Positions 3,001 through 45,548 of a stretch of DNA of 64,000 nucleotides are shown one piece after another. Where the stretch lies: assembly GCA_964344035.1 (NCBI GenBank), contig CAYFLK010000002.1:2117-66116 (forward strand). The letters are read 5' to 3'. The notes under the pieces were generated by a model. It worked only from the letters and a program-made list of their open reading frames with translations. It was not told where the DNA came from and made no database searches. This DNA comes from an uncultured Pseudomonadota bacterium (GTDB lineage Bacteria > SAR324 > NAC60-12). Made by a program: the position numbers and the translations under genes. The first letter of the stretch is position 1; each line of letters starts with the position of its first letter.

Positions 3001-6000
3001 CTGTTTCATCATCCATGTTCTGCAATGGCAAGTCTTCCGGGTCAATGCCGTTGTATTCCGAATCACTGCTCACCGCGGGCCCCAGGTAAATGAAATAACC
3101 CTGGTCCCCGTCGGAGAGGTTGTCGTCCTCTCCGCGGATCAACACCAGCTGGTTTGAATTCCAGTTATCGGCGGTGAAGCTCAAGTTGTCTGAGCCGGTG
3201 TTGCCGGCAATGCTGTAGATCTTGCCTTCAGTGCTGTCGCTGCTGCTGACGGGAAGGGAAACGTTATCATTCGGACGGCTGGCTAAACGCACCTGAAAAG
3301 CGGAAAAACCGCCTTTTTCAGAAGTCGGACCACTGACAGGACTGACGACAAAGGACGCGGATTCATCATCAATGTTGGTGACAAAAACATCCGGCGGATC
3401 GAGGTTCAGATAGGCTGTATCCGTTGTGTTGTTGTCCGCATCGAGCAGAATCGCCACTACCTGGTGACCGTCCGTGAGGTTGTCGTCAATTCCGGTGAGA
3501 TGCACATATTGATAAGTATTCCAGTTGTCTGCTGTAAAACTAAGGGTTGCCGGCGTGGCCTGTACTTCCGAAGTGTTATCGCTGCTGATTCCAATACTGA
3601 TATTGTCGGTTGGCTCGCTGTTGAGGCGCAGAGCAAAAACGGCCTGTACCCCGGATTCGCTGGTGCTGCCGCTCACCGGACTAATCGTGTACCCCGCGGT
3701 TTCATCATCGATATTTATGAGGTAGACGTCAGGCGGATCGAGGTTGTTGTAATTGGAATCGCCGGAAGAAGCGTTATCGATCCGCACCCGGTAGGGCTGG
3801 TTTCCATCAGCTACCGCATCGTCCTGGCCCGTGACGGTGACGAGTTGCACCGCCTCCCAGTTGGATGAAGTAAAAGTCAGCGCGGAGGGCGATACAGTTC
3901 CTTCGCTGATGTTGTCGCTGGAGAGGCTGACAGTTACGTTGTCCTCGGGACGGGTGTTGAGACGCAGAGTGAAGAAAGCCACACCGCCTTCTTCTGTGGT
4001 GTCACCGCTTACCGCACCCAGCTTGTATCCCGCTCCCTCATTGTCACGGTTGGTGATGACGACATCCATGGGATCCTTCCCGCTGTAGGCCGCATTGCTG
4101 CTGCTGGCCGAACCTAGGATCACCGTGAAGGTCTGGTATCCGTCAATCACTTCGTCGTCAACCCCGGATACAGTGACAGTCCGGGCAGTGCTGAAATTGT
4201 CCGTGGAAAAAATAAGCTGATCGGGACTGACCGTACCCTCGGCAATGTTGCTGCTGAAAAGTGGGATGGTGACATTTGCAGTAGGCCGGGATTGCAGGCT
4301 GACCGTGAAGGTGGCGTTGTCTCCGCCTTCCGAAGTGCTGCCGCTGACTGAACCGATGATGAAACCCGCAACGTCATTATCCTGGTTCTCCGCGGTGAGG
4401 TCCGGGGGGTCCAGGTTTTTGTAGTTTGAATCGGATGTGCCGGAATCTCCATCGATCCGGATAGTGAACTGCTGGGTTCCGTCGGTCAGGTTGTCATCTT
4501 CTCCCTTGACATAAACAGTGGTAAGGTCATTCCAGTTGCTTGCGGAAAATGTGAGTGCCGCTGTATCGTTCCAGCTTCCATTTGAAAAGATATTCCCTTC
4601 CGTTGAATCACTGATACTCAGCGACAGGGTGATGTTATCGCTCGGTTCGCTGTTCAGTTTGAGAGTGAAACTGGCATTGTCTCCGTCTTCAGTCATGATC
4701 CCGCTGAGAGACCCGACGAGCACATTCGGAACCTCATCATCGAGATTGGAGACAAATAGATCCCCGGGATCAAGGTCCCTGTAAGCAACATCGGCAGTGC
4801 TGTTGTCAGCGTAAAGCTGAACGACGTAGATTTGATTCCCGTCGGTAAGGTTGTCATCCACACCCGTCAACGTCACCGTCTGGAACAGATTCCAGGTGTT
4901 GTTGTCAAAACTCAAGTTGTCCGGGGATACCACACCTTCCCCGGAATCGCTGCTGCTGATTCCCAGCGTGATGCTATGTGTGGGCTGGCTGGTCAAACGC
5001 AGGGCAAACATCGCCTGGCCTCCGGTCTCGGAAGTGCCGCCGCTGACAGGACTGATCGAGTAACCAGCTTCATCGTTGTCAAGATTGATGACATAGACGT
5101 CAGGTGGGTCCAGTCCATGATAACCGGAGTCAGTTGAACTAGCGTTGTCAAGCACTACCAGGTATGACTGATCCCCGTCAGCATTCAGATCATCCTTGCC
5201 GGAAATAGTTACAACCTGGTCGACCGACCAGGTTGAGGAGGTAAAACTAAGGTTATCCGGGTTGACAGTGCCTTCGTCAGTATCTGAACTTGAAACTGCA
5301 ATTGTGACGTCGCCGGTTGGTTTGCTGTTCAGATGAATGGTGAAAAAAGCGACTCCGCCTGTTTCGGAAGTGGGGCCGCTGATGCTGCCGACAGTAAACC
5401 CGACTCCCTCGTTATCAACATTGGTGACAAGCACATCCTGCGGTTTTACCCCGTTGTAGAGCAGATTATTGCTTAAGGCTGCAGCCAGGATAACGCTGAA
5501 GGTCTGATACCCGTCGATGAGGTCGTCATCAACTCCGGTGACAGTCACTGTCTGCGCGGTGTTCCAATCGGAGTTACTGAAGCTGAGGTTGTCCGGAGAG
5601 ACAGTGCCTTCGGACGGGTTTGAACTGGAAAGGGTGATGCCGACGTTTGTCCCTGGAGGAGGCTGTGCGCGCAGCTTGACGGTGAAAGTGGCGTTGTCGC
5701 CGCTTTCGTAGGTATTGCCGCTGATGGCGCTTATCTCAAATCCAGCAATCTCATCATCGAGATTGGAAATCTGCACGTATTCAGAAGGAAGGCCGCGGTA
5801 ATTTGAATCGGCGCTTGAAGCATCGGGACTGATCCGGATCTCAAATTCCTGGCTGCCGTCGGTTATGTTATCGTCCACCCCGGTCACTGTAACAGTCTGC
5901 AAGGTCTGCCAACTTGCATTGTCAAACGTCAGGTTGTCCGGACTGACTGTTCCTTCTCCGGTATTGCTGCTCATAAGGTTGAAGATCACTGTTCCCAGAG

Positions 6001-7300
6001 GTTCGCTGCTGAGCCGGATTTCGAACGTCGCGTTGTCCCCTGACTCGGTGGTGTTGCTGCTCAGGCTCCCAACCGTCACCCCAGCTGCTTGAGCATCATC
6101 ATCCTCGTTGACAAAAATAACGTCGATGGGGTCAAGGTCTCTGTAATTCAGATCACCGGTGTTCTGGTCTGCTGACAGGATGACGACATAAGAAATGTTG
6201 CCGTCAGTACTGTTGTCCTGGACCCCGCTCAAGGTAATGGTCTGGTAATTGTCCCAGTTGCTTGCACTGAAGACGACCTGGTTCAGGACCTCGGCGCTGT
6301 TGTTGATGTATTCGATTTTTCCTTCGCCCGCGTCTCCCACTTCCAGCCCAATTGTCACATTGTCGGTTGGAGGACTGTTTAGCTTGATGGCAAACATTGC
6401 CATCCCTCCGCCTTCAGTGGTTGGGCCACTGGTCTCGGTGATGGTGAAACCAGCGGTGTACAAATCTGTATCTTTGTTTGTCAGCAGTACGTCAGATGGA
6501 TTCAATCCGAGATAACTACTGTCAGTGGTTGAGTTGTCTGCTGAGAGGATGATGCGATAACCCTGGTCCCCGTCAGATTCATTGTCGAGTTGTCCGATTA
6601 CTTTGATCAGCTGTTCCACGTTCCAGTTGGACTCGGTGAAAGTCAGGCTCAGATTGTCTGTTTCGCTGTTGTTCGCTTTCAGCAGTTTGCCCTCGCTGGA
6701 ATCCTCGGTGGCAACCCCGATTGTGACATTGTCAACGGGTTGCAATGTCAGCCTGACGGTAAAGACCGCCGTTCCTCTTGCCTCGGAAGTTGATCCACTG
6801 ACAACGCTGATCTCGAAGCCCCCGGGTTCGTTATCAAGGTTGACCACACTCACGGATTCCGACGTGCGGTTTTGGTAATTGCTGTCTTGAGAAGATGCAG
6901 GTGAAAAATTGAGGAAATAGCTTTGGTTGCGGTCCGGTATGAAGTCATCAACCCCGGTGAGGGTTACCGTGTCCCCGGTCTGCCAGTTCGATGCATCCAA
7001 AACCAGGCTGGTTTTATTCAGGAATCCTTCATCAGTATTGCTGCTGGAGATTGGGATATCTACCGACGAGGTGGGTTCGCTGGTGAGTTTCACCGTCACT
7101 GTTCCGGCACCACCCGATTCAGTGGTATTGTCGCTCAGGGGGCCAACAGTGATCCCCGCGCTGTCATTGTCCAGGTTGGTCAGGTTGAACAAGTCTGACC
7201 GCAGGTTGTTGTATTTATCGTGATTGCTGACGGTTGGCCCCAGATGTATGGAGAATGACCGGTCTCCGTCGTCGATGTAATCATCCACCCCGAAAACCGT
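1..7300 (-). repeat. About 21-22 tandem, diverged coding repeats with a period of roughly 320-370 nt inside the giant gene
   Basis: The G(V/I)DD..(T/S)DG-encoding segment recurs on the + strand as gtcgtc.ac.cc.gtgac.gt.ac near 10, 340, 700, 1070, 1400, 1750, 2095, 2450, 2790, 3120, 3480, 3830, 4150, 4490, 4850, 5200, 5520, 5870, 6220, 6590, 6940 and 7280. The copies are diverged, not identical. Confidence 0.8.
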
Positions 7301-7651
7301 GATAGTTTGAGCTGTGTCCCAATCCTTCCTGGAAAAAATAATGCTGGACGGGGAAATTCTGCCTTCAGTGGCATCAGTGCTGGAGATGGGTACCGTCACG
7401 GAAGCGGAGGGCTGTTCATCCAACTGGATAAGAAAAGTCGTGTTGTCCCCGCTTTCCGATACTGTTGCCGAGAGACCGGACTGGGCAACCAGTTTTCCCG
7501 GTGTTGGTTCGGTAAACGGACTTTTGAAAAATACCTCGTCTGAATCAAGGTTGCAGGATGCTGTCCCAAAAAACAGCAGCGACCACAACCAATGAAAAAT
7601 AGTGACGCGCGGGATAATTTTTTGTGCAGATCGGTACAGCCTGGTTGCCAT
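1..7651 (-). CDS. Giant repetitive cell-surface lipoprotein (N-terminal ~2550 aa; ORF continues past the left window edge), built from tandem ~115-aa Calx-beta/cadherin-like beta-sandwich repeats
   Basis: ATG at 7651, with an in-frame stop upstream at 7721-7723. My translation begins MATRLYRSAQKIIPRVTIFHWLWSLLFFGTASC-NLDSDEVFF, which is a signal peptide followed by a lipobox-like TASC. The same frame at nt 58-2 still reads ...LTFGTTNWNGWQTVTIVGVD, which is the repeat motif. All minus-strand ORFs in the supplied track between 1 and 7656 lie in another frame. That fits one uninterrupted frame that was not listed because it has no stop inside the window. Repeat signature: SG.T.E.G..A.F.V.L.S.P...V.I..SSD..EG.V.P..L.F....W...Q.V.V.G.DD...DG.Q.Y.I. 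Confidence 0.85.
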   Translation of the reverse strand, partial: MATRLYRSAQKIIPRVTIFHWLWSLLFFGTASCNLDSDEVFFKSPFTEPTPGKLVAQSGLSATVSESGDNTTFLIQLDEQPSASVTVPISSTDATEGRISPSSIIFSRKDWDTAQTITVFGVDDYIDDGDRSFSIHLGPTVSNHDKYNNLRSDLFNLTNLDNDSAGITVGPLSDNTTESGGAGTVTVKLTSEPTSSVDIPISSSNTDEGFLNKTSLVLDASNWQTGDTVTLTGVDDFIPDRNQSYFLNFSPASSQDSNYQNRTSESVSVVNLDNEPGGFEISVVSGSTSEARGTAVFTVRLTLQPVDNVTIGVATEDSSEGKLLKANNSETDNLSLTFTESNWNVEQLIKVIGQLDNESDGDQGYRIILSADNSTTDSSYLGLNPSDVLLTNKDTDLYTAGFTITETSGPTTEGGGMAMFAIKLNSPPTDNVTIGLEVGDAGEGKIEYINNSAEVLNQVVFSASNWDNYQTITLSGVQDNSTDGNISYVVILSADQNTGDLNYRDLDPIDVIFVNEDDDAQAAGVTVGSLSSNTTESGDNATFEIRLSSEPLGTVIFNLMSSNTGEGTVSPDNLTFDNASWQTLQTVTVTGVDDNITDGSQEFEIRISPDASSADSNYRGLPSEYVQISNLDDEIAGFEISAISGNTYESGDNATFTVKLRAQPPPGTNVGITLSSSNPSEGTVSPDNLSFSNSDWNTAQTVTVTGVDDDLIDGYQTFSVILAAALSNNLLYNGVKPQDVLVTNVDNEGVGFTVGSISGPTSETGGVAFFTIHLNSKPTGDVTIAVSSSDTDEGTVNPDNLSFTSSTWSVDQVVTISGKDDLNADGDQSYLVVLDNASSTDSGYHGLDPPDVYVINLDNDEAGYSISPVSGGTSETGGQAMFALRLTSQPTHSITLGISSSDSGEGVVSPDNLSFDNNTWNLFQTVTLTGVDDNLTDGNQIYVVQLYADNSTADVAYRDLDPGDLFVSNLDDEVPNVLVGSLSGIMTEDGDNASFTLKLNSEPSDNITLSLSISDSTEGNIFSNGSWNDTAALTFSASNWNDLTTVYVKGEDDNLTDGTQQFTIRIDGDSGTSDSNYKNLDPPDLTAENQDNDVAGFIIGSVSGSTSEGGDNATFTVSLQSRPTANVTIPLFSSNIAEGTVSPDQLIFSTDNFSTARTVTVSGVDDEVIDGYQTFTVILGSASSSNAAYSGKDPMDVVITNRDNEGAGYKLGAVSGDTTEEGGVAFFTLRLNTRPEDNVTVSLSSDNISEGTVSPSALTFTSSNWEAVQLVTVTGQDDAVADGNQPYRVRIDNASSGDSNYNNLDPPDVYLINIDDETAGYTISPVSGSTSESGVQAVFALRLNSEPTDNISIGISSDNTSEVQATPATLSFTADNWNTYQYVHLTGIDDNLTDGHQVVAILLDADNNTTDTAYLNLDPPDVFVTNIDDESASFVVSPVSGPTSEKGGFSAFQVRLASRPNDNVSLPVSSSDSTEGKIYSIAGNTGSDNLSFTADNWNSNQLVLIRGEDDNLSDGDQGYFIYLGPAVSSDSEYNGIDPEDLPLQNMDDETAGFNISFVSGDTDENGATADFSVSLRSEPGDNVTVYLSSSDTGEGTVSTEALTFTPENWNAAQTVTLTGIADNTSDGDQLYIIRILSDNTSSDNQYRGLDPPDVSLKNLDSRSGFYISALSGTTSEVGGTAMFGVRLMSRPSASVTIPLSSSDTGEGTVNPSSLTFTTSNWNAEQLVTVSGVDDNISDGDQGYRIVLGADNATSDMTYRGLDPRDVMVANVDDESAGFTIEINSYTSEAGALATIKIKLNSEPTDNLTIGVSSSDESEGTITSISTGGTSSVAFTTEDWNSYKSIVITGVDDNLSDGDQSYSIELTADTATTDLRYNRRDPADVELVNLDDDIAGFYISAVSNSTSEQGDNATFTVSLRSRPTDNVTITVGSSDETEGTANRASITFDNASWNSAVTVRVDGLDDNVTDGNQSYAIYLGADNTTADTKYRYLDPDDVAVVNIDDETAGFTVSVTDESSSETGDTASFSVRLNSEPTDNVTITLSSNDTGEGDVTVPSVKQFTFGASDWHTAQTVTVTGADDNTTDGHQEYTVGLLADASTGDNRYRNLKPPAVRLTNLDDETAGFVVSTISGNTGEDGTSATFTVYLTSRPTDNVTLTLFSNDSSEGEVTPEFYRFTDSNWNTAKTFTVTGLNDYLSDGDQTYLINLEPTYSGDPRYQLLDPPDVRVINTDDENYGFTVSAASGSTTEDGGIATFTVALDLPLETSDNVTLNLSSLDITEGVLLDEDNSTTVTTRTLSWDNSTWSTAQTVLVKGVDDNVSDGDQSFAIRFTAATAAGSNYAGQAPADVSLSNRDDDTPGVSISSISGNTAESGTVARFTVKLGSEPVSSVTLPVTSSDATEGLISVDGGSNYRSTDNLSISTTDWHEDKTVMVQGQNDYTLDGDQSYTVQLGSLVSSDANYSGIDPLDVPLTNIEDISAAIVVNTNSGETGEDGEKASFSVRLGDEPTGSVYVLITSQDTSEGTVETSDNLTFGTTNWNGWQTVTIVGVD

Positions 7652-8035
7652 GGCAAGTACAGGAAAATGCAGGACGCAGCATTGGAGTTTCAAGCCTTGA
7701 CAAGGACTCCGGTCACTGCTTTATGAACCCGTTTGGGCGGCTGGAAAGTGATGCACCACTCATGCCTAGGCAGGGCGGGGAAAATCCGAATTGACCATCG
7801 AGGGAGTGGGGGGTAGGTTAATTTCAAAACCTCAAACGTAAAGAAAACTGCCTGTGTTTCCGGAGTTCATAGGCCAGGGATTTAGGTTTTTTTGTGGTTT
7901 GGGTTGTAGTTGTTCAGGTGGAACTTGGCCCTCCCTTCTAGCATCCCTCCAATGGAAGGGATGGTGAAATCATAAATCCTGGATGTACTGGCCGGACAGT
8001 ATAACAGGCTAAACAACCTGGGCAGAAACACTTCC

Positions 8036-8680
8036 ATGATGTATACAATCCATGAGCGGAGTAAGAAAGAACATGGCGGGAAACGACCTCGTTTCCTTTT
8101 GAAATTGGTTTGTGCCGGACTTTTTTTTTGGCAGGGCGCAGCGAGTGCGGCGGAAATACCGCAGTTGCAGGGCAACACCCCGGATACCATCTTCGGTGGG
8201 GTGGGGCGGATGTATCAAACCTGGTATGCAGGTATCGATTTCCTGTTGTTGAGCACACCTCATACCAACGCCCACCGTACGGTTGGTTTGATCAGCCAGT
8301 CATTCTGGATCGAATGGTGGCCTGATGACCGGTACGGAGTAAAGGGGTTTGCCTCCCCACAAAAATTCCAGAGTTTCGGCAGCGATAGCATTGATATTTC
8401 CACTCAGCATCTGGGAGCAATGGCAATAATACGCTTTCCCATTGATCAGCAATGGCAGCTCAGCGCTGGCATGGGATTGGCACAAACTGCGGCAAAGACA
8501 CCGGATGGAAGCAAATCCGGCACTTCCCTGGCCACCGAATTCCGCATGGGGGTGAAAATCCTGCCCGATTTGCAGCTTGAGATGGGAATGTTGTCCCTCG
8601 ACGGTTCCAGCGGCAGTGCTCCAGGAGATATTCGTCTTGGTTCAACTAGTTATATGTTTGGTTTCAGCAAGGGATTTTAA
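8036..8680 (+). CDS. Small outer-membrane beta-barrel protein (OmpA-N/OmpW-like porin family)
   Basis: Signal-peptide-like N-terminus (...FLLKLVCAGLFFWQGAASAAE). The sequence shows alternating amphipathic strands rich in Gly and aromatics. The C-terminus ...YMFGFSKGF ends in Phe, as is typical of BAM substrates. The gene is divergent from the giant lipoprotein gene. Confidence 0.6.
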   Translation: MMYTIHERSKKEHGGKRPRFLLKLVCAGLFFWQGAASAAEIPQLQGNTPDTIFGGVGRMYQTWYAGIDFLLLSTPHTNAHRTVGLISQSFWIEWWPDDRYGVKGFASPQKFQSFGSDSIDISTQHLGAMAIIRFPIDQQWQLSAGMGLAQTAAKTPDGSKSGTSLATEFRMGVKILPDLQLEMGMLSLDGSSGSAPGDIRLGSTSYMFGFSKGF

Positions 8681-8828: not shown

Positions 8829-10352
8829 ATGGAATTGCCAAACGTCGAAACTCTGAGCGCGGCAGACAAGGTCTGGTTTGCTCAGGCGATCGCAGGGATG
8901 ATTGTCGCCGACGGAAAGGTCGATGAAAGTGAGATGAATTTTCTCAGGCAGGCGATCGGGTTTCTGGAAGACCGCGACGAGGTTGCCCGTATGATGAATA
9001 TTGTCAAACAGGGGAAGCCGCCACAATTGGAGGCAGCCGGAATTGAATCAAGGCAGGCGTTCATTATGCTGAAATACCTGTCGGAATTGATGGTTGCGGA
9101 TTCCAGGCTTTCAACTGGAGAAATCAGGTTTTTTCTTTATGCCGGAACACTGCTTGGCTTCACCAGGGGAATCCTTACCAAGCTTTGGAAAACTGCGCGT
9201 TCGCAATTGGAACGGCGCAAGCCCAAAGCCATTGTCAGTGTGGGGAATTTGGAAGCGGAAGTAGTTTTGATCGAACTTTCTGAAAGCAGATTCACATTCC
9301 GTTTTCCACTGGCACTGACACCGAATGCAAAAATCATCTTACGCATGCATAAAGATGGATCAGGAACATGGGACCCGGTGGCCTGCCGCATGCTCGGTCA
9401 AAGCAAGGACAAGTATGATGGGGGCAGCTTTTCTATTCACGCCAAGTTCGAACAAAAACTGGCTGAATCACATGGCGTGCTGCAGATTCTAAACCCTGAT
9501 CAGTTTCTTGGCAACGAGGGAATCGTTTTGAAACCGAAGAAGAATTCATTGATGGGACGGATGGTGCGTTGTTTTGTCTGTGACGAAAAACGTGTTCCGC
9601 ATTATGTGCTTCGCTCCCGGAGCATGATTACCGAGCCCAATATCTTTGGCGTACCTGCCTATATCAAAAGTGCGGGCAAGCTGGAATTCTGCGACTACAA
9701 CATGATTCAGGTCCACACCTGCCCAACCTGCGGATTTTCCAGCAACAGCATCGAATTCTATGGCAAACAGAAAACAGACCAGCCTCCTTTTGATGTCGAA
9801 GCATTCCGTGAAGGCTGGGAGGAAGCAATTCAGCCGTTACTGGAAACAACCAGGAACAACAAGGATGCATACTTCACTGAGGATCGTTCCGTGGAAATGG
9901 CACTGCTGTCATATGACATGGGACGAGCCACATTTCAACGGCTGGCCGACATCAGCATAGATGAGCAAACCAGAATAAACCTGCTGAGGAAAATGGCTTC
10001 AATGCTGCTGTTTCAGGCGGAATTGTTGATGGAAAACCAGCGGCGGAGTCAGGCCGAAGCAAACCTGAAACAAGTTGTTGACACCTTCGAACCGGTGTTT
10101 GAAATAATGGAAGGAGAAAGCATTCTCCGTGTGGCGTTGCTGATATTCCAAATCAAGATATATTTCAAGGATTACCAGTCTGCCGGGCAATACATGAAAT
10201 TTCTGGATAATTACGACACGGAGGGCAAACTGGATACCGCTTCCTCAGAATACAAAACCCTGCAGGTATGCTCGGCAAAACTGAAAAAATTCTTTGACGA
10301 CCGGGAGATACTGTCTCGTGACAATCTGTCCCGGTTTCACGTAGAGGATTAA
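8829..10352 (+). CDS. Multidomain protein: N-terminal TerB-like domain, central PilZ-like beta-barrel with degenerate c-di-GMP motifs, C-terminal DUF2225-type zinc ribbon plus helical (TPR-like) region
   Basis: TerB-like paired motifs IVADGKVDESEMNFL and MVADSRLSTGEIRFF. PilZ-like stretch ERRKPKAIVSV...VVLIELSESRFTFRF, where RxxxR and DxSxxG are not intact. DUF2225-like C-x2-C...C-P-x-C (RCFVCDEK...VHTCPTCGFSS) is followed by long helices. Confidence 0.7.
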   Translation: MELPNVETLSAADKVWFAQAIAGMIVADGKVDESEMNFLRQAIGFLEDRDEVARMMNIVKQGKPPQLEAAGIESRQAFIMLKYLSELMVADSRLSTGEIRFFLYAGTLLGFTRGILTKLWKTARSQLERRKPKAIVSVGNLEAEVVLIELSESRFTFRFPLALTPNAKIILRMHKDGSGTWDPVACRMLGQSKDKYDGGSFSIHAKFEQKLAESHGVLQILNPDQFLGNEGIVLKPKKNSLMGRMVRCFVCDEKRVPHYVLRSRSMITEPNIFGVPAYIKSAGKLEFCDYNMIQVHTCPTCGFSSNSIEFYGKQKTDQPPFDVEAFREGWEEAIQPLLETTRNNKDAYFTEDRSVEMALLSYDMGRATFQRLADISIDEQTRINLLRKMASMLLFQAELLMENQRRSQAEANLKQVVDTFEPVFEIMEGESILRVALLIFQIKIYFKDYQSAGQYMKFLDNYDTEGKLDTASSEYKTLQVCSAKLKKFFDDREILSRDNLSRFHVED

Positions 10353-10611
10353 CTGGCCTGTTGCATGGACAGGTCTTGCTTCTCCCATCCTCCGGTTTGT
10401 ATTTATCCTCATCTTTCACGCCGGTAAATGCAGATGAACTTTCCGGGAATAAAAAAAGCGTTGCTGTTATTCATTCGTGCTGGAGATGCCAGCTTAACCG
10501 GGAGCGGGTTGTGGTGAGGGAAAACAGAAAACTTTATTCACAACTTCTATACCTCGCATGGGGCTCTTGAGTGTTAGTGATTTAAAATGCCTGTAGTACA
10601 ATGGAGACTGC

Positions 10612-12204
10612 ATGACGGATCCTTCAGTAAACGCTGACGCTTCAACAAACAGCAAAAACGAGAACCGACCGCCGGCCAGACCAAGGAACCAGCGGGTATT
10701 GCTGTTGTTGCCGGAGGCCCTTTTGAAACGTCTGGGGACGCCCCTGCGGACCCGTTTGACCCAACAGGAACTGACAGTGCCGCTGGAACCGGAAACCATT
10801 GCGGAAGAAAAGCAGAACGAGTTTCAATGGTTGCTGCGTTTTCCGTGGAACCTGCCGAAACCCAAGAATGATAACCCAGTAAACAACCGACTCGTTTTCC
10901 GGGTCCCGGGGATGGCAAAACTCAGGGAGGAAAAACTGCCCCCTGCTCCGGATGAGCGAATTAATAATTTGACCAGACGTTTTCATGATTTAAATTCTCA
11001 GCTTGAAGAACGCTGCCGAAAACCGGGATTTCTCAAACTGGTGGGTACCGATGCAGTTATTCGTGAGAAACAGAGGGAAGTGGAAACATTGAAAGCCAAA
11101 CTGGAGCAGTTAAACAAGGAAATTAATAAAGTTGACAAATCTTATTATCAGGCCATCAGTTACATCTTCAGCACAGCCATAGAACGCTTGACGGGCGTTG
11201 CGGTGCTGGAAAAACTGATGAAGGGTTTGATCCGCATCATGCTGATCGATGACCTAGAAAAACGCACGATCGAGGGGCTGGTGCAAAAAAACTACAGCCG
11301 CAAATACCTTTCGCACATGAGTACCAAAGAGCTTGAAGAAAAATACCGCGCCTACAAACAGGAACATGAGAAAGACTCGGAAAGGGAAATGTCCATCGGG
11401 GAATTCATCTTCAAATCACCTGAATTTGAGAAAGTCGATATCGTTTTCTTTAACCGCTGGGATTTTGATGAAGACAGCTTCTTCGTCCCGGTAGCTTTGC
11501 GGAAAAAAACCATTCTCAGCAAACAGGAGCAACGCAAGGCAAAGCAGAATCCGGAATATATTCAAAAGCAGATTGAACAGGAAGAAGCAGGATTGAAGTC
11601 CGCCAATGAACGGCTAAAAGAAGTGATGAAAGATATTAAGCGCATGGAGAAAAGCCATGAAGACGACGAATCCAAATATCAGGCGTACTTGAGTTCCCGC
11701 AAAAGGGTAATCAAGGACATCAAAAGGCGCGAAGCCAGGATAAAATCACTGAAACGCCCGATCAAAATGGAGGACCAGGCTTCCATCGTCAAATTCGATC
11801 TTTATGAAACCTTCAAAGACAACCAGTCTTTCATGGACCGCCTTGGAGACAAGGTTTCAGGTTGGGGACTGGATACCCTCTGGGAGAAGCACATGAATCC
11901 GGATGACCGGTTCAGTTTCGTCAAACTGCAGGAGATGTCGAAGCTGGCAAAGGAATGGATACGCACGAAGTCAATGTTCGACAAATTAAGCAGCGGCACT
12001 GACAACCTGGCCGATCAGTTGCTGCAGTTCTCGGCTGAGCATGATTTGCTGGTGAAAGAATCCCGTTCCCGGGCTGCCGGTCCGGGGAACTACCAGCCGC
12101 TGCTCGACGAACACATCCTCGATTCTCTTGAACGGGCTGTTATCAGTTGTGAAATCGTCAACGGTTTTGAACGTGTGCGTCAAGCTTCCAGGGATGGATT
12201 TTGA
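10612..12204 (+). CDS. Hypothetical 530-aa Lys/Glu-rich coiled-coil protein
   Basis: Long uninterrupted ORF with heptad-like K/E/Q-rich segments (EKQREVETLKAKLEQLNKEINK; KEVMKDIKRMEKSHEDDESKYQ). I recognise no family motif. Its stop overlaps the start of the next gene. Confidence 0.7.
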   Translation: MTDPSVNADASTNSKNENRPPARPRNQRVLLLLPEALLKRLGTPLRTRLTQQELTVPLEPETIAEEKQNEFQWLLRFPWNLPKPKNDNPVNNRLVFRVPGMAKLREEKLPPAPDERINNLTRRFHDLNSQLEERCRKPGFLKLVGTDAVIREKQREVETLKAKLEQLNKEINKVDKSYYQAISYIFSTAIERLTGVAVLEKLMKGLIRIMLIDDLEKRTIEGLVQKNYSRKYLSHMSTKELEEKYRAYKQEHEKDSEREMSIGEFIFKSPEFEKVDIVFFNRWDFDEDSFFVPVALRKKTILSKQEQRKAKQNPEYIQKQIEQEEAGLKSANERLKEVMKDIKRMEKSHEDDESKYQAYLSSRKRVIKDIKRREARIKSLKRPIKMEDQASIVKFDLYETFKDNQSFMDRLGDKVSGWGLDTLWEKHMNPDDRFSFVKLQEMSKLAKEWIRTKSMFDKLSSGTDNLADQLLQFSAEHDLLVKESRSRAAGPGNYQPLLDEHILDSLERAVISCEIVNGFERVRQASRDGF

Positions 12205-12670
12205 ACAGGAATTGTCCGCCTCCGGAGGGACTTACATTCTGATACTGAATGCCTCAAGCAGCTTCCGTGTACTGATTGGACGATTGGGCATATTTGAAGG
12301 GAAGCCTGGAGTTTATTTGTATGTGGGCAGCGCTTTTGGCCCCGGGGGGATCAAAGCCCGGTTGGGACGCCATGCGGGGTTGAGCAGGCGTCATCACTGG
12401 CATATCGATTACCTGCGCAGAGAAGTTACGCTGTCGCAAGTGTGGTATACCCATGATCCCGAGCGGAGAGAACACCTGTGGGCAGGAATTTGGCGCATGT
12501 GGCCGCAATCCCAGGTGCTCATGCCCGGATTTGGATCTTCAGACTGTTCCTGCCTAACTCACCTCTTCCACCTCCCTGAATTCCCGGACTTACAGGAATT
12601 TCGTGCAGTTGCATATGACAAGCAGACAAATCATGAAGAAATCCTTTCCTGGGTCCCCCTTTCTTCATGA
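12194..12670 (+). CDS. GIY-YIG (URI superfamily) endonuclease-like protein, DUF123 family
   Basis: Motifs GVYLYVGSA...ARLGRH....HWHIDYL...GFGSSDCSCLTHLF match the DUF123/COG1833 pattern as I recall it. The ATG at 12194 overlaps the upstream stop (12202-12204) by 11 nt. The longer track ORF from 12128 would overlap more. Confidence 0.8.
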   Translation: MDFEQELSASGGTYILILNASSSFRVLIGRLGIFEGKPGVYLYVGSAFGPGGIKARLGRHAGLSRRHHWHIDYLRREVTLSQVWYTHDPERREHLWAGIWRMWPQSQVLMPGFGSSDCSCLTHLFHLPEFPDLQEFRAVAYDKQTNHEEILSWVPLSS

Positions 12671-13621
12671 TGAACTGGTTTGGTCAAGCAGCGCGTCTTT
12701 CTTCTCCCAGAGATCGTTTAGCCATTTACGGGTTGTCTGGAACCCTTCTATTTCTTTCAAACTTTCCGGCAGCGGGGCGTTATCCCCATCGAGCGGGAGT
12801 TGATCAATTTTCACCACCACTTTTTTTACCCTGCCGAATGCGAGGTCCCAGAATTTTGGAGAACTGAGCCCGGGGTAGCTGATGGTGACGTCGAGCACGG
12901 AGGTCAGTTGATCGCCGATTGTGGAAAGTACCATGTGCACTCCCCCGGCACGAGGTTTTAGCAGATTGCGATAGGGTGACTTGAAGCGCGAGTGTTTTGA
13001 GTGGGTGAACCGTGTACCTTCCACAAAATTGATGATGGTGAAAGGTTCGCCGCGCAGAGATTCACAGGACTTCCTGGTGGTATCAAGGTCCTTTCCGTGC
13101 ATCTCAGGATGCAGATTCAGATAAGTGCGGGAATAACGTTTCATAACCGGCATTTCATAACTCCACAATGCCTGCCCGAAAACCGGGATCCACAGCAATT
13201 CCTGTTTGAGAAAAAAACGCGGGAAAGGCATCTTCTCGCGGGCAATGAGGAAAATAGAGATGATGTCTCCCGCGGAGAGATGATTGCTGATCACCAGGTA
13301 AGAACCTTTCGGTCTCAAGCCTTCCTGCCCGCTGATTTGATACTCCACCTGGTGCAGGAAGGAAAACAGGGCATTGTGTGAATAAATCCAGCGGTTGGCC
13401 AATCCGTAGAACCATTTTCGCAAAACTGACCGGGCGCGTGTCCCGCTGAGCAAATACTTGAATGGAACCAGTGCCAGGATGATCAGACCGACTCCAAGGG
13501 TGGAGATAAGCAGCCAGAGGATGATCAGTATTCCCTTGATGACGTCAGGAAGAATACCGACCAGCCGGGGAGTTGTATCGGGGAAATCGGCGTCTGAATC
13601 AGCGCGGGGCGACATATCCAT
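12665..13621 (-). CDS. Membrane-anchored lysophospholipid/glycerolipid acyltransferase (PlsC/YihG-like)
   Basis: HX4D motif VISNHLSAGD and FVEGTRF motif, with an N-terminal TM helix. The start is placed at internal Met (MDMSPRAD...) so that overlap with the cfa 3' end is about 23 nt rather than about 155 nt. Confidence 0.8.
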   Translation of the reverse strand: MDMSPRADSDADFPDTTPRLVGILPDVIKGILIILWLLISTLGVGLIILALVPFKYLLSGTRARSVLRKWFYGLANRWIYSHNALFSFLHQVEYQISGQEGLRPKGSYLVISNHLSAGDIISIFLIAREKMPFPRFFLKQELLWIPVFGQALWSYEMPVMKRYSRTYLNLHPEMHGKDLDTTRKSCESLRGEPFTIINFVEGTRFTHSKHSRFKSPYRNLLKPRAGGVHMVLSTIGDQLTSVLDVTISYPGLSSPKFWDLAFGRVKKVVVKIDQLPLDGDNAPLPESLKEIEGFQTTRKWLNDLWEKKDALLDQTSSS

Positions 13622-14714
13622 GGGGAAGCCCCTGTTTGGAAAACACGAGTTGCCAAAGTTGATTGCGCCTTGCTCTAAAAGAACCTGCACAGCTGAGAAG
13701 GTAGAATTTCCACATGCGGAAAAACCGTTCGTCATAATAATGAACCAGTTCACGCCAGTGATGCTGAAAATTGCGTAACCAGTGCATCAGGGTCCGGTCA
13801 TAATCGATGCCGAAGTTGTGCCAGTCTTCAAGTAAAAGCAGACCCTCAGCGGCTTCACTGATTTGTTTTGCCGACGGCAGCATTGAATTTGGAAATATAT
13901 AACGCTTTACCCAGGGATTGGTTGTCACTTCTGAACGATTGTTGCCTATGGTCTGCAGCAGGAAAAGACCGCCTTTTATCAGGCAGCGGTTGATGATTTG
14001 AAAATACGTGTGGTAATTATGGTAACCCACGTGTTCAAACATGCCGATGGAAACGATACGGTCATATTTTTCATTGACTTCACGGTAATCTTTTACCTGG
14101 ATTTCCACCGGCAGTCCCAGGCATTCCTCCTTGGCCAGATCCGCCTGTTTCCGGGAAATAGTGATCCCCACCACCTTTACTGAAAACCGTTCCACCAGAA
14201 ACCTGGCGGTCCCACCCCATCCGCAGCCGATATCAAGGACTCGCATTCCGGGTTCGAGCATCAGCTTGCGTCCTATCAGATCCAGCTTTGCCTCCTGTGC
14301 CTGGTCCAGCGTTTTCGCATCCCTCCAGTAGGCGCAGCTGTAGATCATCCGCCGATCAAGCATCCGTTGGTAAAGTTCGTTTCCAATGTCATAGTGCGCT
14401 TCCCCGACCTCGAATGCGCGCAAGGGTTTCTGAAAATTGATCAGCATGGATTGCAGCAGGTAGAACCAATGGAACCAGGGGTGTAGTTTGCGGTCCAGTT
14501 CTAACCCCAAGACACGGGTCATCATCTCATCCAGCTGATCACAGTCCCACCATCCTTCCATATAAGTTTCTCCTACGCCAAGGGAACCGTCCCGCAGGAT
14601 ACGTCGGTAAGTACGCGGATCATGCACCTGCACATCCCAGGGGCGATCCCCGTTCAGCAATACTCCTGCCTGTTCAAGCAACGACTGCAGTTTAGTCATG
14701 AACAAGTTTTTCAT
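13599..14714 (-). CDS. cfa: Cyclopropane-fatty-acyl-phospholipid synthase
   Basis: Typical Cfa N-terminus (...WDVQVHDPRTYRRILRDGSLGVGETYMEGWWDC), SAM motif VLDIGCGWGG, and a length of 371 aa. Confidence 0.9.
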   Translation of the reverse strand: MKNLFMTKLQSLLEQAGVLLNGDRPWDVQVHDPRTYRRILRDGSLGVGETYMEGWWDCDQLDEMMTRVLGLELDRKLHPWFHWFYLLQSMLINFQKPLRAFEVGEAHYDIGNELYQRMLDRRMIYSCAYWRDAKTLDQAQEAKLDLIGRKLMLEPGMRVLDIGCGWGGTARFLVERFSVKVVGITISRKQADLAKEECLGLPVEIQVKDYREVNEKYDRIVSIGMFEHVGYHNYHTYFQIINRCLIKGGLFLLQTIGNNRSEVTTNPWVKRYIFPNSMLPSAKQISEAAEGLLLLEDWHNFGIDYDRTLMHWLRNFQHHWRELVHYYDERFFRMWKFYLLSCAGSFRARRNQLWQLVFSKQGLPHGYVAPR

Positions 14715-21773: not shown

Positions 21774-22274
21774 ATGCTTTTAAATGGATCTGCCGATGGA
21801 AAAAGCTATTTTCCAGGAGATACTGGAACAAACAAATTATCTGCATTTGCAGCCAGAAGCTTAGTGTTGGACCAATTTTCACGAGTTATGGAAAAATATA
21901 ATATTTCTCAAAAGAATAACTTCAAACCAATCATGTTGTATTTTACGGTGCTGATTGGGATATCCATTTTGGTTGGTGCTGTATGCAAAACAGAATATTC
22001 GGCCCCAGAATATTTAACAATTTCCAAGCCAATACCTATAACCGGCAAGGATTTTCTTAGGAATCACGTTAAAGACAAATTTTGTGAACAAGAAAGAATC
22101 CTTGTAACAAGGAAATGCTTTACTGTATCACAATCAAGTCAATACTTTGCGAAGAGATCTACTTTATTCATAGAGCATCTTATTGAAATCAAGAATTATA
22201 AGAATTCCTTCAAAAAATTATCCCCAAATCTCCTAACTTCTTTACACGCAAAAAACGTTCTACAGTTAATTTAG
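21774..22274 (+). CDS. Hypothetical protein with one TM helix (orphan, AT-rich)
   Basis: ORF only, with a TM segment IMLYFTVLIGISILVGAV. I recognise no motif. Confidence 0.35.
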   Translation: MLLNGSADGKSYFPGDTGTNKLSAFAARSLVLDQFSRVMEKYNISQKNNFKPIMLYFTVLIGISILVGAVCKTEYSAPEYLTISKPIPITGKDFLRNHVKDKFCEQERILVTRKCFTVSQSSQYFAKRSTLFIEHLIEIKNYKNSFKKLSPNLLTSLHAKNVLQLI

Positions 22275-22340
22275 AAAATATCTTTTTTCATGCGATTCAT
22301 ATTTTGATTTATTTATTCATATTTTAATGTAAAAGGAATT

Positions 22341-22580
22341 ATGGCAAAAACACGTTTCTTCATTGACAATCAGCCAAAAATAACCCACCAGATTGTAGAA
22401 AATGCTACAGACAATTATTTAAAGCAAGGAGGTAACATAGAACAGCTTCAACCACTTGATTTCACGGGAATGCCTCTCTATCCAAATATCCTGGAATTGG
22501 ATTGGAATATAAATTGGGATGAACCAGAGGGGTCCTTGATGTTGTGGGTGGAGAGGCTGTGTGATACACAAAAATCTTAA
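22341..22580 (+). CDS. Hypothetical 79-aa protein (orphan, AT-rich)
   Basis: ORF with ATG start preceded by aaaaggaatt. No recognisable motif. Confidence 0.4.
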   Translation: MAKTRFFIDNQPKITHQIVENATDNYLKQGGNIEQLQPLDFTGMPLYPNILELDWNINWDEPEGSLMLWVERLCDTQKS

Positions 22581-23002
22581 AATGATTCATCATAATAATA
22601 ACAAGAACTAGTCACACAGTGATTGCCATGATGTTTCATCGATACAATTTGATGCAATCAAGGCATGAGGAATAAGCTTGTCTATTCGAATGCGTTTTGC
22701 ATTAGATTTTGGATGTGATGTTGGTTTCAGGACCTTATGTATTTTATTAGCGGGAATCTATCCTGCCAAATGCATTACAGGGAGAACAGCTGATTGAATA
22801 ATACGTGATTACAAGTGTAAGTGTTTCCTTTGACATCAAATCAGGACATCATGGCAAGTCCATGCGGATTCTCACTTTCCAGTAAATAGTGAATTTCAAA
22901 GCGAACTTTCGGGAGAACAGAGAACTATCACAAATACCACACACTCAGGTGGTACAATCATAAAAGCTCAGTAAAACGAAAAACTCCAAAGGAAAACAGC
23001 AT

Positions 23003-23794: not shown

Positions 23795-23805
23795 TTAATT
23801 GCACA

Positions 23806-24249
23806 ATGAGTGTGTTTACAAATATAAAATTAAAGGAGTGGTTCAGCTCCATTATCATAGCATCAGCAGTTTTTCTGATGCTGGGAACAATGACTGCTTT
23901 ATGGGAAAACCCATTTTTTATTAGGATGACAAAGATTTCATTCTGGGATTATATGCTGCTGGGATTAGAATCAATACTGATTGGTCTTTTTATGGGAACT
24001 CGAGCATCATCCTGTGCAATAAAAAAAGCTGGAATCGGAGGTGTTTTTGGATTCCTTGGATTTGCCTGTCCTACCTGTAACAAGATTCTTATGCTAGTTT
24101 TCGGTTCAAGTTTGCTGATATCATATTTCGAGCCTGTTCGGTATTTGGTCGGCATTATTGGGATTTCTTTGTTTTCTTATGCTTTGTACCAGAAAATGTC
24201 TCTGCGATTGTCAACCTATTCATCAACACTCATCAACCCCAGACTATAA
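23806..24249 (+). CDS. Small 4-TM membrane protein with an intramembrane CPTC motif plus one further Cys; unassigned family
   Basis: Four hydrophobic segments. Cys sits in RASSCAIKK, and FLGFACPTCNKIL lies within predicted TM3. The start is 11 nt after the DsbA stop, so co-transcription is likely. Confidence 0.65.
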   Translation: MSVFTNIKLKEWFSSIIIASAVFLMLGTMTALWENPFFIRMTKISFWDYMLLGLESILIGLFMGTRASSCAIKKAGIGGVFGFLGFACPTCNKILMLVFGSSLLISYFEPVRYLVGIIGISLFSYALYQKMSLRLSTYSSTLINPRL

Positions 24250-43079: not shown

Positions 43080-43104
43080 ACATCCTGTTATGCGGTTATG
43101 GGTA

Positions 43105-43368: not shown

Positions 43369-43474
43369 CTATTTGTCTACCATTTCTTCATGAGATTTCA
43401 TGATAATCTCCTTTTATCGCCATGGCTGATCTTTGTATAAAAAATGCTCTTACCATTCCATATTAAAGGACGCC

Positions 43475-43502: not shown

Positions 43503-43527
43503 GAAAATTGTTTATTTTCAGGGCGGA

Positions 43528-45444: not shown

Positions 45445-45548
45445 AAAAACTCTAACAAAATGAAAAACAGAAGAAGACCTCCAACCAAGTTGTTTTTAAC
45501 AATTATAGGTGTCATATCCTCCCGGTTGGGAAATTGGAAATGCGCATT

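What the first reader, a model, noticed from the sequence alone, without database searches (positions are those of the whole stretch)
8829..12670. Three co-directional genes (TerB/PilZ-like/DUF2225 protein, 530-aa coiled-coil protein, overlapping DUF123 GIY-YIG nuclease): candidate uncharacterised stress-sensing or defence module
Seen in the sequence:
- The three genes are on the same strand.
- The last two overlap by 11 nt (ATG 12194, stop 12202-12204), which suggests translational coupling.
- None has an assigned biochemical role.

Established knowledge:
- TerB domains occur in tellurite/phage-resistance-type stress systems that comparative genomics has linked to DNA-processing enzymes.
- PilZ barrels are c-di-GMP receptors.
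- GIY-YIG is a nuclease fold.
- DUF2225 and DUF123 have no known function.

Inference: a sensor (TerB plus PilZ-like plus zinc ribbon/TPR), a long coiled-coil scaffold and a small nuclease effector have the layout of many recently found defence or stress systems. I know of no described system with this composition.
Basis: partly seen in the sequence, partly recalled or inferred. Interest (0 to 1): 0.7.

Follow-up and report, generated by a model that had tools for sequence, protein, structure and literature searches.

The report
SAR324 gene pair plus passenger nuclease
The three genes are real, but only the first two (with an upstream outer-membrane-like gene) form a block conserved across the marine SAR324 bacteria, while the small nuclease gene belongs to a widespread repair-type family that sits there in only one sub-lineage, so this is not a three-part defence system.

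Summary
There are three co-directional ORFs at 8829-10352 (g1), 10612-12204 (g2) and 12194-12670 (g3), and g2 and g3 overlap by 11 nt.

The domain calls mostly hold:
- g3 is a clear DUF123/COG1833 GIY-YIG protein.
- g1 has a TerB-like helical domain, a PilZ-like barrel, and a zinc ribbon plus TPR-like DUF2225 region. The barrel is supported by fold only, and the canonical c-di-GMP motifs are absent.
- g2 is an orphan protein rich in long helices.

The three-gene "sensor-scaffold-nuclease" module is not conserved:
- In 33 informative species-level SAR324 loci, g2 follows g1 in 23, with a median spacing of 9 nt.
- An upstream secreted, OMP-like gene (g0, 8036-8680) accompanies the pair in 21 of 22 informative loci.
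- DUF123 follows g2 only in the window's own sub-clade (2 of 33).
- None of 83 DUF123 loci from other organisms carries a g1 or g2 relative.
- There is no PADLOC hit, no defence-island context, and no viral or plasmid link.

Best reading: g0-g1-g2 is a SAR324-specific operon of unknown function, probably an adaptor/scaffold pair, with weak hints towards the envelope or motility. DUF123 is an independent repair-type nuclease gene. Interest is modest.

The parts
8036..8680 (+). g0: 214-aa secreted, outer-membrane-beta-barrel-like protein. It is the conserved upstream member of the block and lies outside the finding's coordinates.
   Evidence: tblastn finds it directly upstream of g1 in 21 of 22 informative g2-containing species-level loci. 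It has a signal peptide and a conserved C-terminal ...LGSTxYxxGLSxGF ending in Phe. It gives only weak OMP_b-brl (E 0.009) and Omp85 hits, and homologues have no Pfam hit.
8829..10352 (+). g1: 507-aa protein with four modules (TerB-like, PilZ-like barrel, zinc ribbon, TPR-like; the last two make up DUF2225).
   Evidence: AF2 model with pLDDT 88. The 67 homologues at E<=1e-3 are mostly 506-525 aa; the named ones are SAR324. All 34 full-length genome loci are SAR324-type MAGs. Family-wide DUF2225 in 26/27 and TerB in 25/27.
8829..9215 (+). g1 residues 1-129: TerB-like helical domain.
   Evidence: Six helices. Pfam TerB in 25/27 family members, best E 8.1e-6. The profile hits PDB 2h5n (PG_1108) at E 0.005 over residues 10-112. 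Invariant D28-G29...E35 and D91...E98.
9225..9449 (+). g1 residues 133-207: PilZ-like beta-barrel without the canonical c-di-GMP motifs.
   Evidence: Foldseek matches PlzA 7mie, VCA0042 2rde, PA4608 1ywu, 4xrn, BcsA PilZ 4i86 and MotI 5vx6 (prob 0.97-1.0; TM-score on the target 0.53-0.59 for isolated PilZ domains). The position of RxxxR is an invariant R124xxxE128, and DxSxxG is not conserved: LSESRF in the window.
9549..9743 (+). g1 residues 241-305: zinc-ribbon-like beta region (N-terminal part of DUF2225).
   Evidence: Invariant C248, C251, C298 and C301, plus C288. Beta strands at 241-281.
9795..10298 (+). g1 residues 323-490: TPR/14-3-3-like helical solenoid (C-terminal part of DUF2225).
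   Evidence: pLDDT >90. Foldseek matches TPR, 14-3-3 and NASP folds. The Pfam DUF2225 match covers residues 291-456.
10353..10611 (.). g1-g2 spacer of 259 nt, unusually long compared with relatives.
   Evidence: In 35 related loci the spacing is -14 to +125 nt, median 9. A weak terminator-like hairpin lies at 10355-10375. The spacer has no unusual RNA structure (z = 0.14) and no Rfam match.
10612..12204 (+). g2: 530-aa orphan protein with long helices and small alpha/beta sub-domains; the conserved downstream partner of g1.
   Evidence: AF2 model with pLDDT 80, helices at 138-194, 314-381, 436-476 and 495-529. No Pfam family in 24 members. Foldseek gives only generic coiled-coil matches. Only 92 relatives among 1.84 billion representatives. 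Lies directly after g1 in 23/33 species-level loci.
12194..12670 (+). g3: 158-aa DUF123/COG1833 GIY-YIG nuclease-family protein that overlaps the g2 stop by 11 nt. It is a lineage-restricted downstream gene, not a conserved member of the block.
   Evidence: PF01986 at E 5.5e-24. It keeps every invariant residue of the family: G12-T13-Y14, Y43-x-G45, R56, H60, W69-H70-x-D72-Y73, E93 and S116-D117-C118-x-C120-xx-H123. It is present after g2 only in L008-L011, L013 and L014.

Best explanation
The locus holds two separate things.

(1) A SAR324-specific operon, g0-g1-g2.
- g0 is a small secreted protein resembling an outer-membrane beta-barrel.
- g1 is a cytoplasmic adaptor-type protein with four modules: a TerB-like helical bundle that keeps two invariant Asp...Glu pairs; a PilZ-like barrel that has lost the c-di-GMP signature; a four-cysteine zinc ribbon; and a TPR-like solenoid. 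The last two together are DUF2225.
- g2 is an orphan long-helix protein.

Inferred, not shown: in most lineages g2 starts within a few nucleotides of the g1 stop, so the two are probably made together and act as a complex. g1 would serve as a ligand- or partner-docking adaptor and g2 as an elongated scaffold. The most likely field of action is regulation of an envelope or motility/chemotaxis machine rather than nucleic-acid attack.

(2) g3 is an intact member of the widespread stand-alone DUF123/COG1833 GIY-YIG family, which the literature predicts to act in DNA repair. It was placed at the 3' end of g2 in the ancestor of one SAR324 sub-clade. It is co-transcribed there as a passenger and is not an effector of g1-g2.
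For: Shown:
- g1 and g2 are adjacent in 23 of 33 informative species-level SAR324 loci. Spacing in 35 related loci is -14 to +125 nt, median 9.
- The pair persists across at least six different flanking contexts: ECH/TldD, thiolase-ECH, Tmk-MreB/TrpA, PrmA, and two DUF123-containing contexts.
- g0 lies upstream in 21 of 22 informative loci.
- DUF123 lies downstream only in the window's sub-clade.
- 0 of 83 DUF123 loci elsewhere carry a g1 or g2 relative.
- Elsewhere DUF123 abuts unrelated genes just as tightly. It shows its own lineage-specific synteny, with TatD upstream in 16 of 83 loci.
- DUF123 is absent from 2.9 million viral contigs.
- The window's DUF123 does not cluster with the syntenic SAR324 copies (0 of 100 bootstraps), whereas those two copies cluster together in 100 of 100.
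- The window is housekeeping and metabolic.
- There is no credible PADLOC hit.
- The g1 architecture comes from a pLDDT-88 model and Foldseek.

Literature: COG1833 proteins are about 150 aa, combine a GIY-YIG domain with a C-terminal His/Cys cluster, and are predicted to be repair-related because of an endonuclease III fusion (PMC1564403).

Hints for envelope or motility (weak):
- The only experimental datum on DUF2225 is a motility defect in a Leptospira biflexa mutant (PMC12236494).
- PilZ-fold adaptors such as MotI, PlzA and YcgR are among the structural matches.
- A distant g2 homologue sits beside a stand-alone PilZ gene and a chemoreceptor gene (L145).
- In the deep clade, g1 follows ExbB-ExbD.
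Against: - No function is demonstrated for any of the four genes, and a physical g1-g2 interaction was not tested.
- In the window itself the g1-g2 gap is 259 nt with a weak terminator-like hairpin, so coupling here is looser than in relatives.
- g2 is missing next to g1 in 10 of 33 loci. In the deep clade it is encoded elsewhere, so the pair is not obligatory.
- Within the window's sub-clade the block g0-g1-g2-DUF123 is kept in three species-level lineages with different flanks, and the g2/DUF123 overlap is preserved. A local functional recruitment of DUF123 therefore cannot be excluded.
- The DUF123 tree is near saturation (about 40-50% identity throughout), so the failure to cluster is weak evidence.
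- The envelope/motility hints are single observations.
Confidence: 0.55

Rival explanations
1. The first reader's model, restricted to the window's sub-clade. g1 senses a stress signal, g2 scaffolds, and the translationally coupled DUF123 nuclease is the effector, so the three genes form a new stress or defence module.
For: - The 11-nt g2/g3 overlap is real.
- Overlapping starts are also present in the two sister lineages, at 26-38 nt.
- The four-gene block is retained there with different downstream flanks.
- The DUF123 catalytic residues are intact.
Against: - The association is absent from 31 of 33 species-level g1 loci.
- It is absent from all 83 DUF123 loci elsewhere.
- DUF123 overlaps or abuts unrelated genes in other genomes.
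- There is no credible PADLOC match, no defence-island context, and no relative on viral contigs; the g1-g3 DNA has no near-identical plasmid match.
- g1-g2 persists without any nuclease in most lineages.
Confidence: 0.1
2. g1 is a c-di-GMP receptor of the YcgR/MotI type. Nucleotide binding to its PilZ barrel controls g2 and hence motility.
For: - The PilZ fold match includes c-di-GMP-bound PlzA, VCA0042 and MotI.
- There is a DUF2225 motility phenotype in Leptospira.
- A distant g2 homologue lies beside a PilZ gene and a chemoreceptor gene.
Against: - The RxxxR position is an invariant RxxxE.
- (D/N)xSxxG is not conserved and is absent from the window protein.
- Pfam PilZ is not detected in any of 27 members at E <= 0.1.
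Confidence: 0.1
3. Nothing here is a functional unit. g0, g1, g2 and g3 are unrelated lineage-specific genes, and their adjacency is inherited synteny within one phylum.
For: - All loci come from a single phylum.
- g2 is absent or elsewhere in 10 of 33 loci.
- The window's g1-g2 spacer is 259 nt.
Against: - The pair survives rearrangement of both flanks in at least six contexts, at 33-57% g2 identity.
- It keeps near-zero or overlapping spacing in most lineages. That is typical of co-translated partners, not of neutral synteny.
Confidence: 0.2

Closest known systems
DUF123 / COG1833 stand-alone GIY-YIG proteins (Dunin-Horkawicz et al. 2006, PMC1564403)
   Same: g3 is about 158 aa. It has the GIY...YxG boxes, the catalytic Arg and Glu, and Asp in place of the usual Asn, followed by a Cys/His cluster (SDCxCxxH). 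The Pfam score is well above cutoff.
   Different: Nothing substantive; it is an ordinary member. Only its position, overlapping the end of g2, is lineage-specific.
DUF2225 proteins (PF09986), including Leptospira biflexa LEPBIa0550, which affects motility (PMC12236494)
   Same: The C-terminal 260 residues of g1 have the four-cysteine zinc ribbon and the helical repeat region. 26 of 27 family members match the model.
   Different: g1 carries an extra N-terminal TerB-like domain and a PilZ-like barrel. All full-length relatives found by these searches come from SAR324-type genomes. The window protein itself scores below Pfam's cutoff. No sequence comparison with the Leptospira protein was possible here.
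PilZ-domain adaptors (YcgR, MotI/DgrA, PlzA, PA4608; and the non-binding type II PilZ such as PA2960, the latter from my own knowledge)
   Same: The same six-stranded barrel fold.
   Different: No RxxxR or (D/N)xSxxG motif and no Pfam PilZ hit. If the barrel works like any PilZ protein, it resembles the non-nucleotide-binding protein-docking type.
TerB-domain proteins of ter-type stress systems (PF05099; Anantharaman, Iyer and Aravind 2012, from my own knowledge)
   Same: A helical bundle with paired conserved Asp/Glu positions, and a family-level Pfam match.
   Different: No terZ/A/C/D/E or other ter genes in the 64-kb window. The domain is fused to unrelated modules. Stand-alone paralogues of this TerB-like domain in SAR324 have no nuclease neighbours.
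SMC/MukB/Rad50 and Lamassu LmuB coiled-coil proteins
   Same: Long antiparallel helices. There are weak matches in the coiled-coil segments only: MukB elbow at E 0.056 and LmuB at E 9.7e-5 over 70 residues.
   Different: No ATPase head and no conserved Walker A motif. The NCBIfam SMC score is 12.7 bits against a cutoff of 567.

Membership tests
DUF123 / COG1833 GIY-YIG | Pfam PF01986 score above the gathering cutoff | tested here: met
   84.9 bits against a cutoff of 25, E 5.5e-24.
DUF123 / COG1833 GIY-YIG | GIY and YIG boxes, catalytic Arg and metal-binding Glu | tested here: met
   G12-T13-Y14, Y43-x-G45, R56 and E93 are invariant in a 20-sequence alignment and present in the window copy.
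DUF123 / COG1833 GIY-YIG | C-terminal Cys/His cluster, with Asp replacing the usual Asn (PMC1564403) | tested here: met
   S116-D117-C118-x-C120-x-x-H123 are invariant.
DUF123 / COG1833 GIY-YIG | Nuclease activity or a repair role | not testable with these tools
   No experimental study was found: two papers mention DUF123 and three mention COG1833.
DUF2225 (PF09986) | Pfam score above the gathering cutoff | tested here: inconclusive
   The window protein scores 15.5 bits against a cutoff of 21. 26 of 27 family members match at E <= 0.1, best 2.3e-10.
DUF2225 (PF09986) | Four-cysteine zinc ribbon followed by a helical repeat domain | tested here: met
   Invariant C248/C251/C298/C301. Helices at 323-490 match TPR and 14-3-3 folds.
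TerB (PF05099) | Pfam score above the gathering cutoff | tested here: inconclusive
   The window protein scores 14.6 bits against a cutoff of 24.4. 25 of 27 members match, best E 8.1e-6. The family profile hits PDB 2h5n at E 0.005.
TerB (PF05099) | Genomic association with other ter genes (terZABCDE-type cluster) | tested here: not met
   No Ter family appears among the window proteins scanned or in related loci.
PilZ c-di-GMP receptors (PF07238) | PilZ beta-barrel fold | tested here: met
   Foldseek probability 1.0 for several PilZ structures. TM-score on the target is 0.53-0.59 for isolated domains.
PilZ c-di-GMP receptors (PF07238) | RxxxR motif preceding the barrel | tested here: not met
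   R124 is invariant, but position 128 is Glu in 26 of 27 sequences and Asp in the other.
PilZ c-di-GMP receptors (PF07238) | (D/N)xSxxG motif in the barrel | tested here: not met
   The window has L-S-E-S-R-F and most others have V-D-E-T-G-F, so neither Asp nor Gly is conserved in register.
PilZ c-di-GMP receptors (PF07238) | Sequence-profile match to PF07238 | tested here: not met
   PF07238 is absent from the families matched by any of 27 members at E <= 0.1.
Known anti-phage defence systems (PADLOC-DB 2.0) | A match of any component to a defence-protein model | tested here: not met
   g1 and g3 match nothing. g2 gives only a 70-residue coiled-coil match to LmuB (19 bits).
Known anti-phage defence systems (PADLOC-DB 2.0) | Location in a defence island or on a mobile element | tested here: not met
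   The neighbours are KsgA, Lon, XdhC, cytochrome c, DsbA, a CMAS-family (PF02353, cyclopropane-fatty-acid-synthase-type) methyltransferase and inositol catabolism genes. GC3 is native. DUF123 has no relative on viral contigs and the g1-g3 DNA has no near-identical plasmid match.
   2 of 33 species-level g1 loci and 0 of 83 DUF123 loci.
SMC-like coiled-coil ATPases | Walker A/B ATPase head flanking the coiled coil | tested here: not met
   A GxxxxGK[ST]-like string occurs in only 11 of 24 members, in a variable loop, and is absent from the window protein. The SMC model scores 12.7 bits against a cutoff of 567.

The most novel reading that the evidence does not exclude
In the window's SAR324 sub-clade, an older g0-g1-g2 adaptor/scaffold module has recruited a COG1833 GIY-YIG nuclease as a translationally coupled output. 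That would create a new sensor-scaffold-nuclease system for stress response or defence, and would give DUF123 its first functional context.
Probability: 0.08. Interest if true: 0.65.

Novelty: new variant of a known kind. Interest (0 to 1): 0.28.

Why it matters
SAR324 is one of the most abundant bacterial groups in the dark ocean and has no cultured representative. A block conserved across most of its marine lineages therefore marks a lineage-defining but unknown piece of cell biology. It encodes an unusual TerB-like/PilZ-like/DUF2225 protein and an orphan coiled-coil partner.

The result also prevents a false lead. The DUF123 nuclease should not be catalogued as the effector of a new defence system on the strength of an 11-nt overlap.

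Two small, testable points follow:
- DUF2225 proteins may act with PilZ-type modules, in line with the single motility phenotype reported in Leptospira.
- The PilZ-like barrel here is predicted not to bind c-di-GMP.

Tried and rejected
- g2 as an SMC/Lamassu-like ATPase. Rejected: there is no conserved Walker A motif and the matches are confined to coiled-coil segments.
- g2's central alpha/beta region (residues about 198-303, motifs IDD...VFFNxW) as a pseudo-receiver (REC-like) domain. A profile of 12 sequences found no receiver among PDB sequences or Pfam families. Unsupported.
- DUF123 as a phage-borne or homing-endonuclease-like mobile gene. No relative in 2.9 million viral contigs, native GC3, and no plasmid match for the region. 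Not supported.
- A regulatory RNA in the 259-nt g1-g2 spacer. No Rfam hit and folding no better than shuffles (z = 0.14).
- Homology between g2 and the coiled-coil proteins that follow stand-alone TerB-like paralogues (L047, L053). hhalign probability is 0.1. Analogy at most.
- Homology between g0 and the 227-aa secreted protein that replaces or follows g2 in other clades. None found.
- Functional clues from long g2 homologues (700-900 aa). No Pfam domain in any of ten.
- A sequence search of DUF123 against solved structures found nothing meaningful.
- A first NJ bootstrap script timed out. It was redone with a faster implementation.

Full report
**1. Observation**

- g1: 8829-10352 (+), 507 aa.
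- g2: 10612-12204 (+), 530 aa.
- g3: ends at 12670, with possible starts at TTG 12128 or ATG 12194.

The sequence ...agggATGgattttTGA... confirms that ATG 12194 overlaps the g2 stop (12202-12204) by 11 nt. ATG 12194 is the plausible start because it leaves 11 residues before the conserved GTY box, as in homologues. All three genes have many homologues of similar length, so they are real genes. A fourth co-directional gene, g0 (8036-8680, 214 aa), precedes g1. A giant Calx-beta gene lies divergently upstream and an acyltransferase gene lies convergently downstream.

**2. Domain calls**

*g3* is a clear DUF123 protein (PF01986, 84.9 bits against a cutoff of 25).

*g1* scores below Pfam's cutoffs for DUF2225 and TerB in the window protein. 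Across 27 family members, however, DUF2225 is matched by 26 (best E 2.3e-10) and TerB by 25 (best E 8.1e-6). The family profile also hits the PG_1108 structure 2h5n at E 0.005 over residues 10-112.

An AlphaFold2 model built on the 27-sequence alignment has mean pLDDT 88. It shows four modules:
- a helical domain at residues 1-129;
- a beta-barrel at 133-207;
- a beta-rich region at 241-305 that carries the invariant C248, C251, C298 and C301;
- a helical solenoid at 323-490.

Foldseek against the PDB matches the barrel to PilZ domains: PlzA, VCA0042, PA4608, BcsA-PilZ, MotI and MrkH. Probability is up to 1.0, and the TM-score on the target is 0.53-0.59 for isolated domains. It matches the solenoid to TPR, 14-3-3 and NASP folds.

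The 'PilZ-like' call is therefore right at the level of fold only. The two motifs that define c-di-GMP-binding PilZ domains are not there. The RxxxR position is an invariant R124xxxE128. The (D/N)xSxxG position reads LSESRF in the window and VDETGF in most others. No member matches Pfam PilZ.

*g2* has no Pfam family in any of 24 members. Its model (pLDDT 80) consists of long helices with small alpha/beta parts. Foldseek finds only generic coiled-coil arms. g2 has no conserved Walker A motif and matches no known housekeeping coiled-coil family.

**3. Is the three-gene association conserved?**

All named g1 and g2 homologues come from SAR324. A scan of one genome per species with the g1 alignment returned 34 loci with a full-length g1, all from SAR324-type MAGs. 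It also returned partial matches to stand-alone TerB-like paralogues. One of the 34 loci (L018) is cut off just after g1, leaving 33 informative loci.

A tblastn table of g0-g3 against all loci gives these counts:
- g2 lies directly after g1 in 23 of the 33.
- g0 lies directly before g1 in 21 of the 22 g2-containing loci that are informative for it.
- DUF123 lies after g2 in only 2 of the 33 (L013 and L014). These are the window's nearest relatives, with g1 identity of 61-63%.

Metagenome contigs of the same two lineages (L008/9 and L010/11) show the same arrangement, with 26-38-nt overlaps.

Ten loci lack g2:
- In one clade (L030-L036) g1 is followed by a 227-aa secreted protein.
- In two of the three deepest-clade loci (L043 and L044; about 36% identity) g1 follows ExbB-ExbD and precedes a Sel1-repeat protein; the third (L041) has neither.
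- In that deepest clade an 872-aa g2 homologue is encoded on another contig of the same MAG, beside STAS, response-regulator and histidine-kinase genes.

Where the pair is present it is very tight. Spacing in 35 loci runs from -14 to +125 nt with a median of 9. The window's 259 nt is the outlier. The pair persists across at least six different flanking contexts.

**4. The DUF123 side**

The family is large (1314 hits) and taxonomically broad, covering Desulfobacterales, Gammaproteobacteria, Salinibacter, Anaerolineales and Firmicutes.
- Three annotated contexts show unrelated neighbours, yet the same tight packing against the upstream gene (a 4-nt overlap and a 3-nt gap).
- Eighty metagenome loci plus those three give 83 DUF123 loci, and none has a g1 or g2 relative.
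- The only recurrent neighbour is TatD, upstream in 16 of the 83 loci. The TatD copies are about 70-81% identical to one another, so this reflects one Desulfobacterales-like lineage.
- No relative exists in 2.9 million viral contigs.
- The window copy keeps every invariant residue, and its GC3 is native.
- It is more similar to over 100 DUF123 proteins from elsewhere (150-156 bits) than to the syntenic SAR324 copies (116-124 bits).
- It never groups with the syntenic SAR324 copies in NJ bootstraps (0 of 100), whereas those two copies always group together (100 of 100). Identities are near saturation, so this argues only weakly against simple vertical co-inheritance.

The literature describes this family as COG1833: about 150 aa, a GIY-YIG domain plus a C-terminal His/Cys cluster with Asp replacing the usual Asn. 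It is predicted to act in DNA repair because of an endonuclease III fusion in Methanococcales (PMC1564403).

**5. Context**

The rest of the window encodes:
- KsgA, Lon, XdhC, cytochrome c and DsbA;
- a hybrid kinase and an amidase;
- acyl-CoA ligases;
- an inositol-catabolism cluster;
- ABC transporters.

There are no ter genes, no defence genes and no mobile-element genes. PADLOC gives nothing for g1 and g3, and only a 70-residue coiled-coil match for g2. The g1-g2 spacer has no Rfam match and no unusual fold.

**6. Interpretation**

The evidence separates the locus into two things: a conserved SAR324 block (g0-g1-g2) and an independent DUF123 gene attached in one sub-clade.

For g0-g1-g2 I commit to an adaptor/scaffold model, which is inferred rather than shown. 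g1 docks ligands or partners through three elements: its TerB-like bundle (invariant D28/E35 and D91/E98), its degenerate PilZ barrel, and its TPR-like solenoid. g2 is made stoichiometrically alongside it and provides an elongated scaffold.

The field of action is most likely the envelope or motility/chemotaxis. The hints are weak but independent:
- the only experimental result on DUF2225 is a motility defect in Leptospira biflexa (PMC12236494);
- the structural neighbours include the motility regulators MotI, PlzA and YcgR;
- a distant g2 homologue sits beside a stand-alone PilZ gene and a chemoreceptor gene;
- g1 follows ExbB-ExbD in two of the three deep-clade loci;
- g0 has a signal peptide and an OMP-type C-terminal beta-signal.

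DUF123 is most simply a stand-alone repair-type nuclease.

**7. Comparison with known families, and novelty**

- g3 is an ordinary member of DUF123/COG1833.
- g1 is a DUF2225-family protein with an N-terminal TerB-like plus PilZ-like extension seen only in SAR324. It is not a canonical PilZ receptor, because its motifs were tested and not met. It is not part of a ter system.
- g2 is an orphan family, with only 92 relatives among 1.84 billion representatives.

As a system, this is a lineage-specific conserved operon of unknown function: a new variant built from known domain kinds. It is not a new defence system. Interest is modest (0.28). The residual novel reading is that DUF123 was recruited as an effector in the window's sub-clade. 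I put it at about 8%.

Noticed in passing
window 2-7720 (- strand): An open reading frame of more than 2570 codons runs off the window's left end. It encodes a repetitive Calx-beta-type surface protein. The many short + strand ORFs in 4800-7600 are shadows of its repeats.
   Followed up: partly
window 42273-54372: An apparent myo-inositol catabolism cluster. It holds KduI/IolB (42273-43160), a PfkB kinase fused to DUF2090 (43528-45444), a TPP enzyme resembling IolD (50183-52039), a GFO/IDH/MocA dehydrogenase (52224-53360) and a xylose-isomerase-like TIM barrel (53473-54372). A sugar ABC transporter (45549-48700) and an RpiR regulator (48996-49817) lie within it.
   Followed up: no
L047 7980-10202; L053 7971-10439; L051 5-2090: Stand-alone proteins of about 150 aa that resemble g1's TerB-like domain occur in SAR324, a Bacteriovoracaceae MAG and Acanthopleuribacter. 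In L047 and L053, and possibly L051 (judged from residue composition only), they are followed by long coiled-coil proteins that show no detectable homology to g2 (hhalign probability 0.1). This may be a recurrent TerB-like plus coiled-coil pairing by analogy.
   Followed up: partly
L061, L079, L083, L086, L092, L094, L105, L110, L111, L115, L118, L122, L129, L131, L142, L143: In 16 of 83 DUF123 loci the gene directly follows a TatD-family hydrolase. In 12 of the 83 it is followed by an enoyl-CoA hydratase-like gene. The TatD copies are about 70-81% identical but the DUF123 copies only 49-99% (median 56%). This is synteny in one lineage, with DUF123 evolving faster than its neighbour.
   Followed up: partly
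L064 156-2774; L145 5295-7581; proteins P0250-P0274: Distant g2 homologues of 700-900 aa carry a C-terminal extension of 200-350 residues with no Pfam match. One lies beside STAS, response-regulator and histidine-kinase genes (L064). A 526-aa homologue lies divergently beside a 127-aa PilZ protein and a chemoreceptor gene (L145).
   Followed up: partly
L030 9553-10236; L012 9640-10323: A 227-aa secreted protein (signal peptide, conserved ...GVGxRYRWG... C-terminus, no Pfam match) directly follows g1 in the clade that lacks g2, and follows g2 in L012/L042. It is unrelated to g0 by BLAST.
   Followed up: partly
L043 3119-7852; L044 6753-11293: In two of the three deepest SAR324 loci the order is ExbB-like, ExbD-like, g1, then a 585-aa Sel1-repeat protein with an N-terminal hydrophobic segment. 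No g2 or g0 is nearby.
   Followed up: partly
window 22001-24000: G+C drops to 0.375 here, against 0.515 for the window as a whole. The region lies between an ORF with no Pfam match (21774-22274) and a DsbA-like gene (23003-23794).
   Followed up: no
window 12665-14714 (- strand): The acyltransferase ORF (12665-13753) overlaps the 3' end of g3 by 6 nt in convergent orientation. As listed, from its first possible start codon (GTG), it also overlaps the CMAS-family (PF02353, cyclopropane-fatty-acid-synthase-type) gene (13599-14714) by 155 nt, so its true start is probably further downstream.
   Followed up: no
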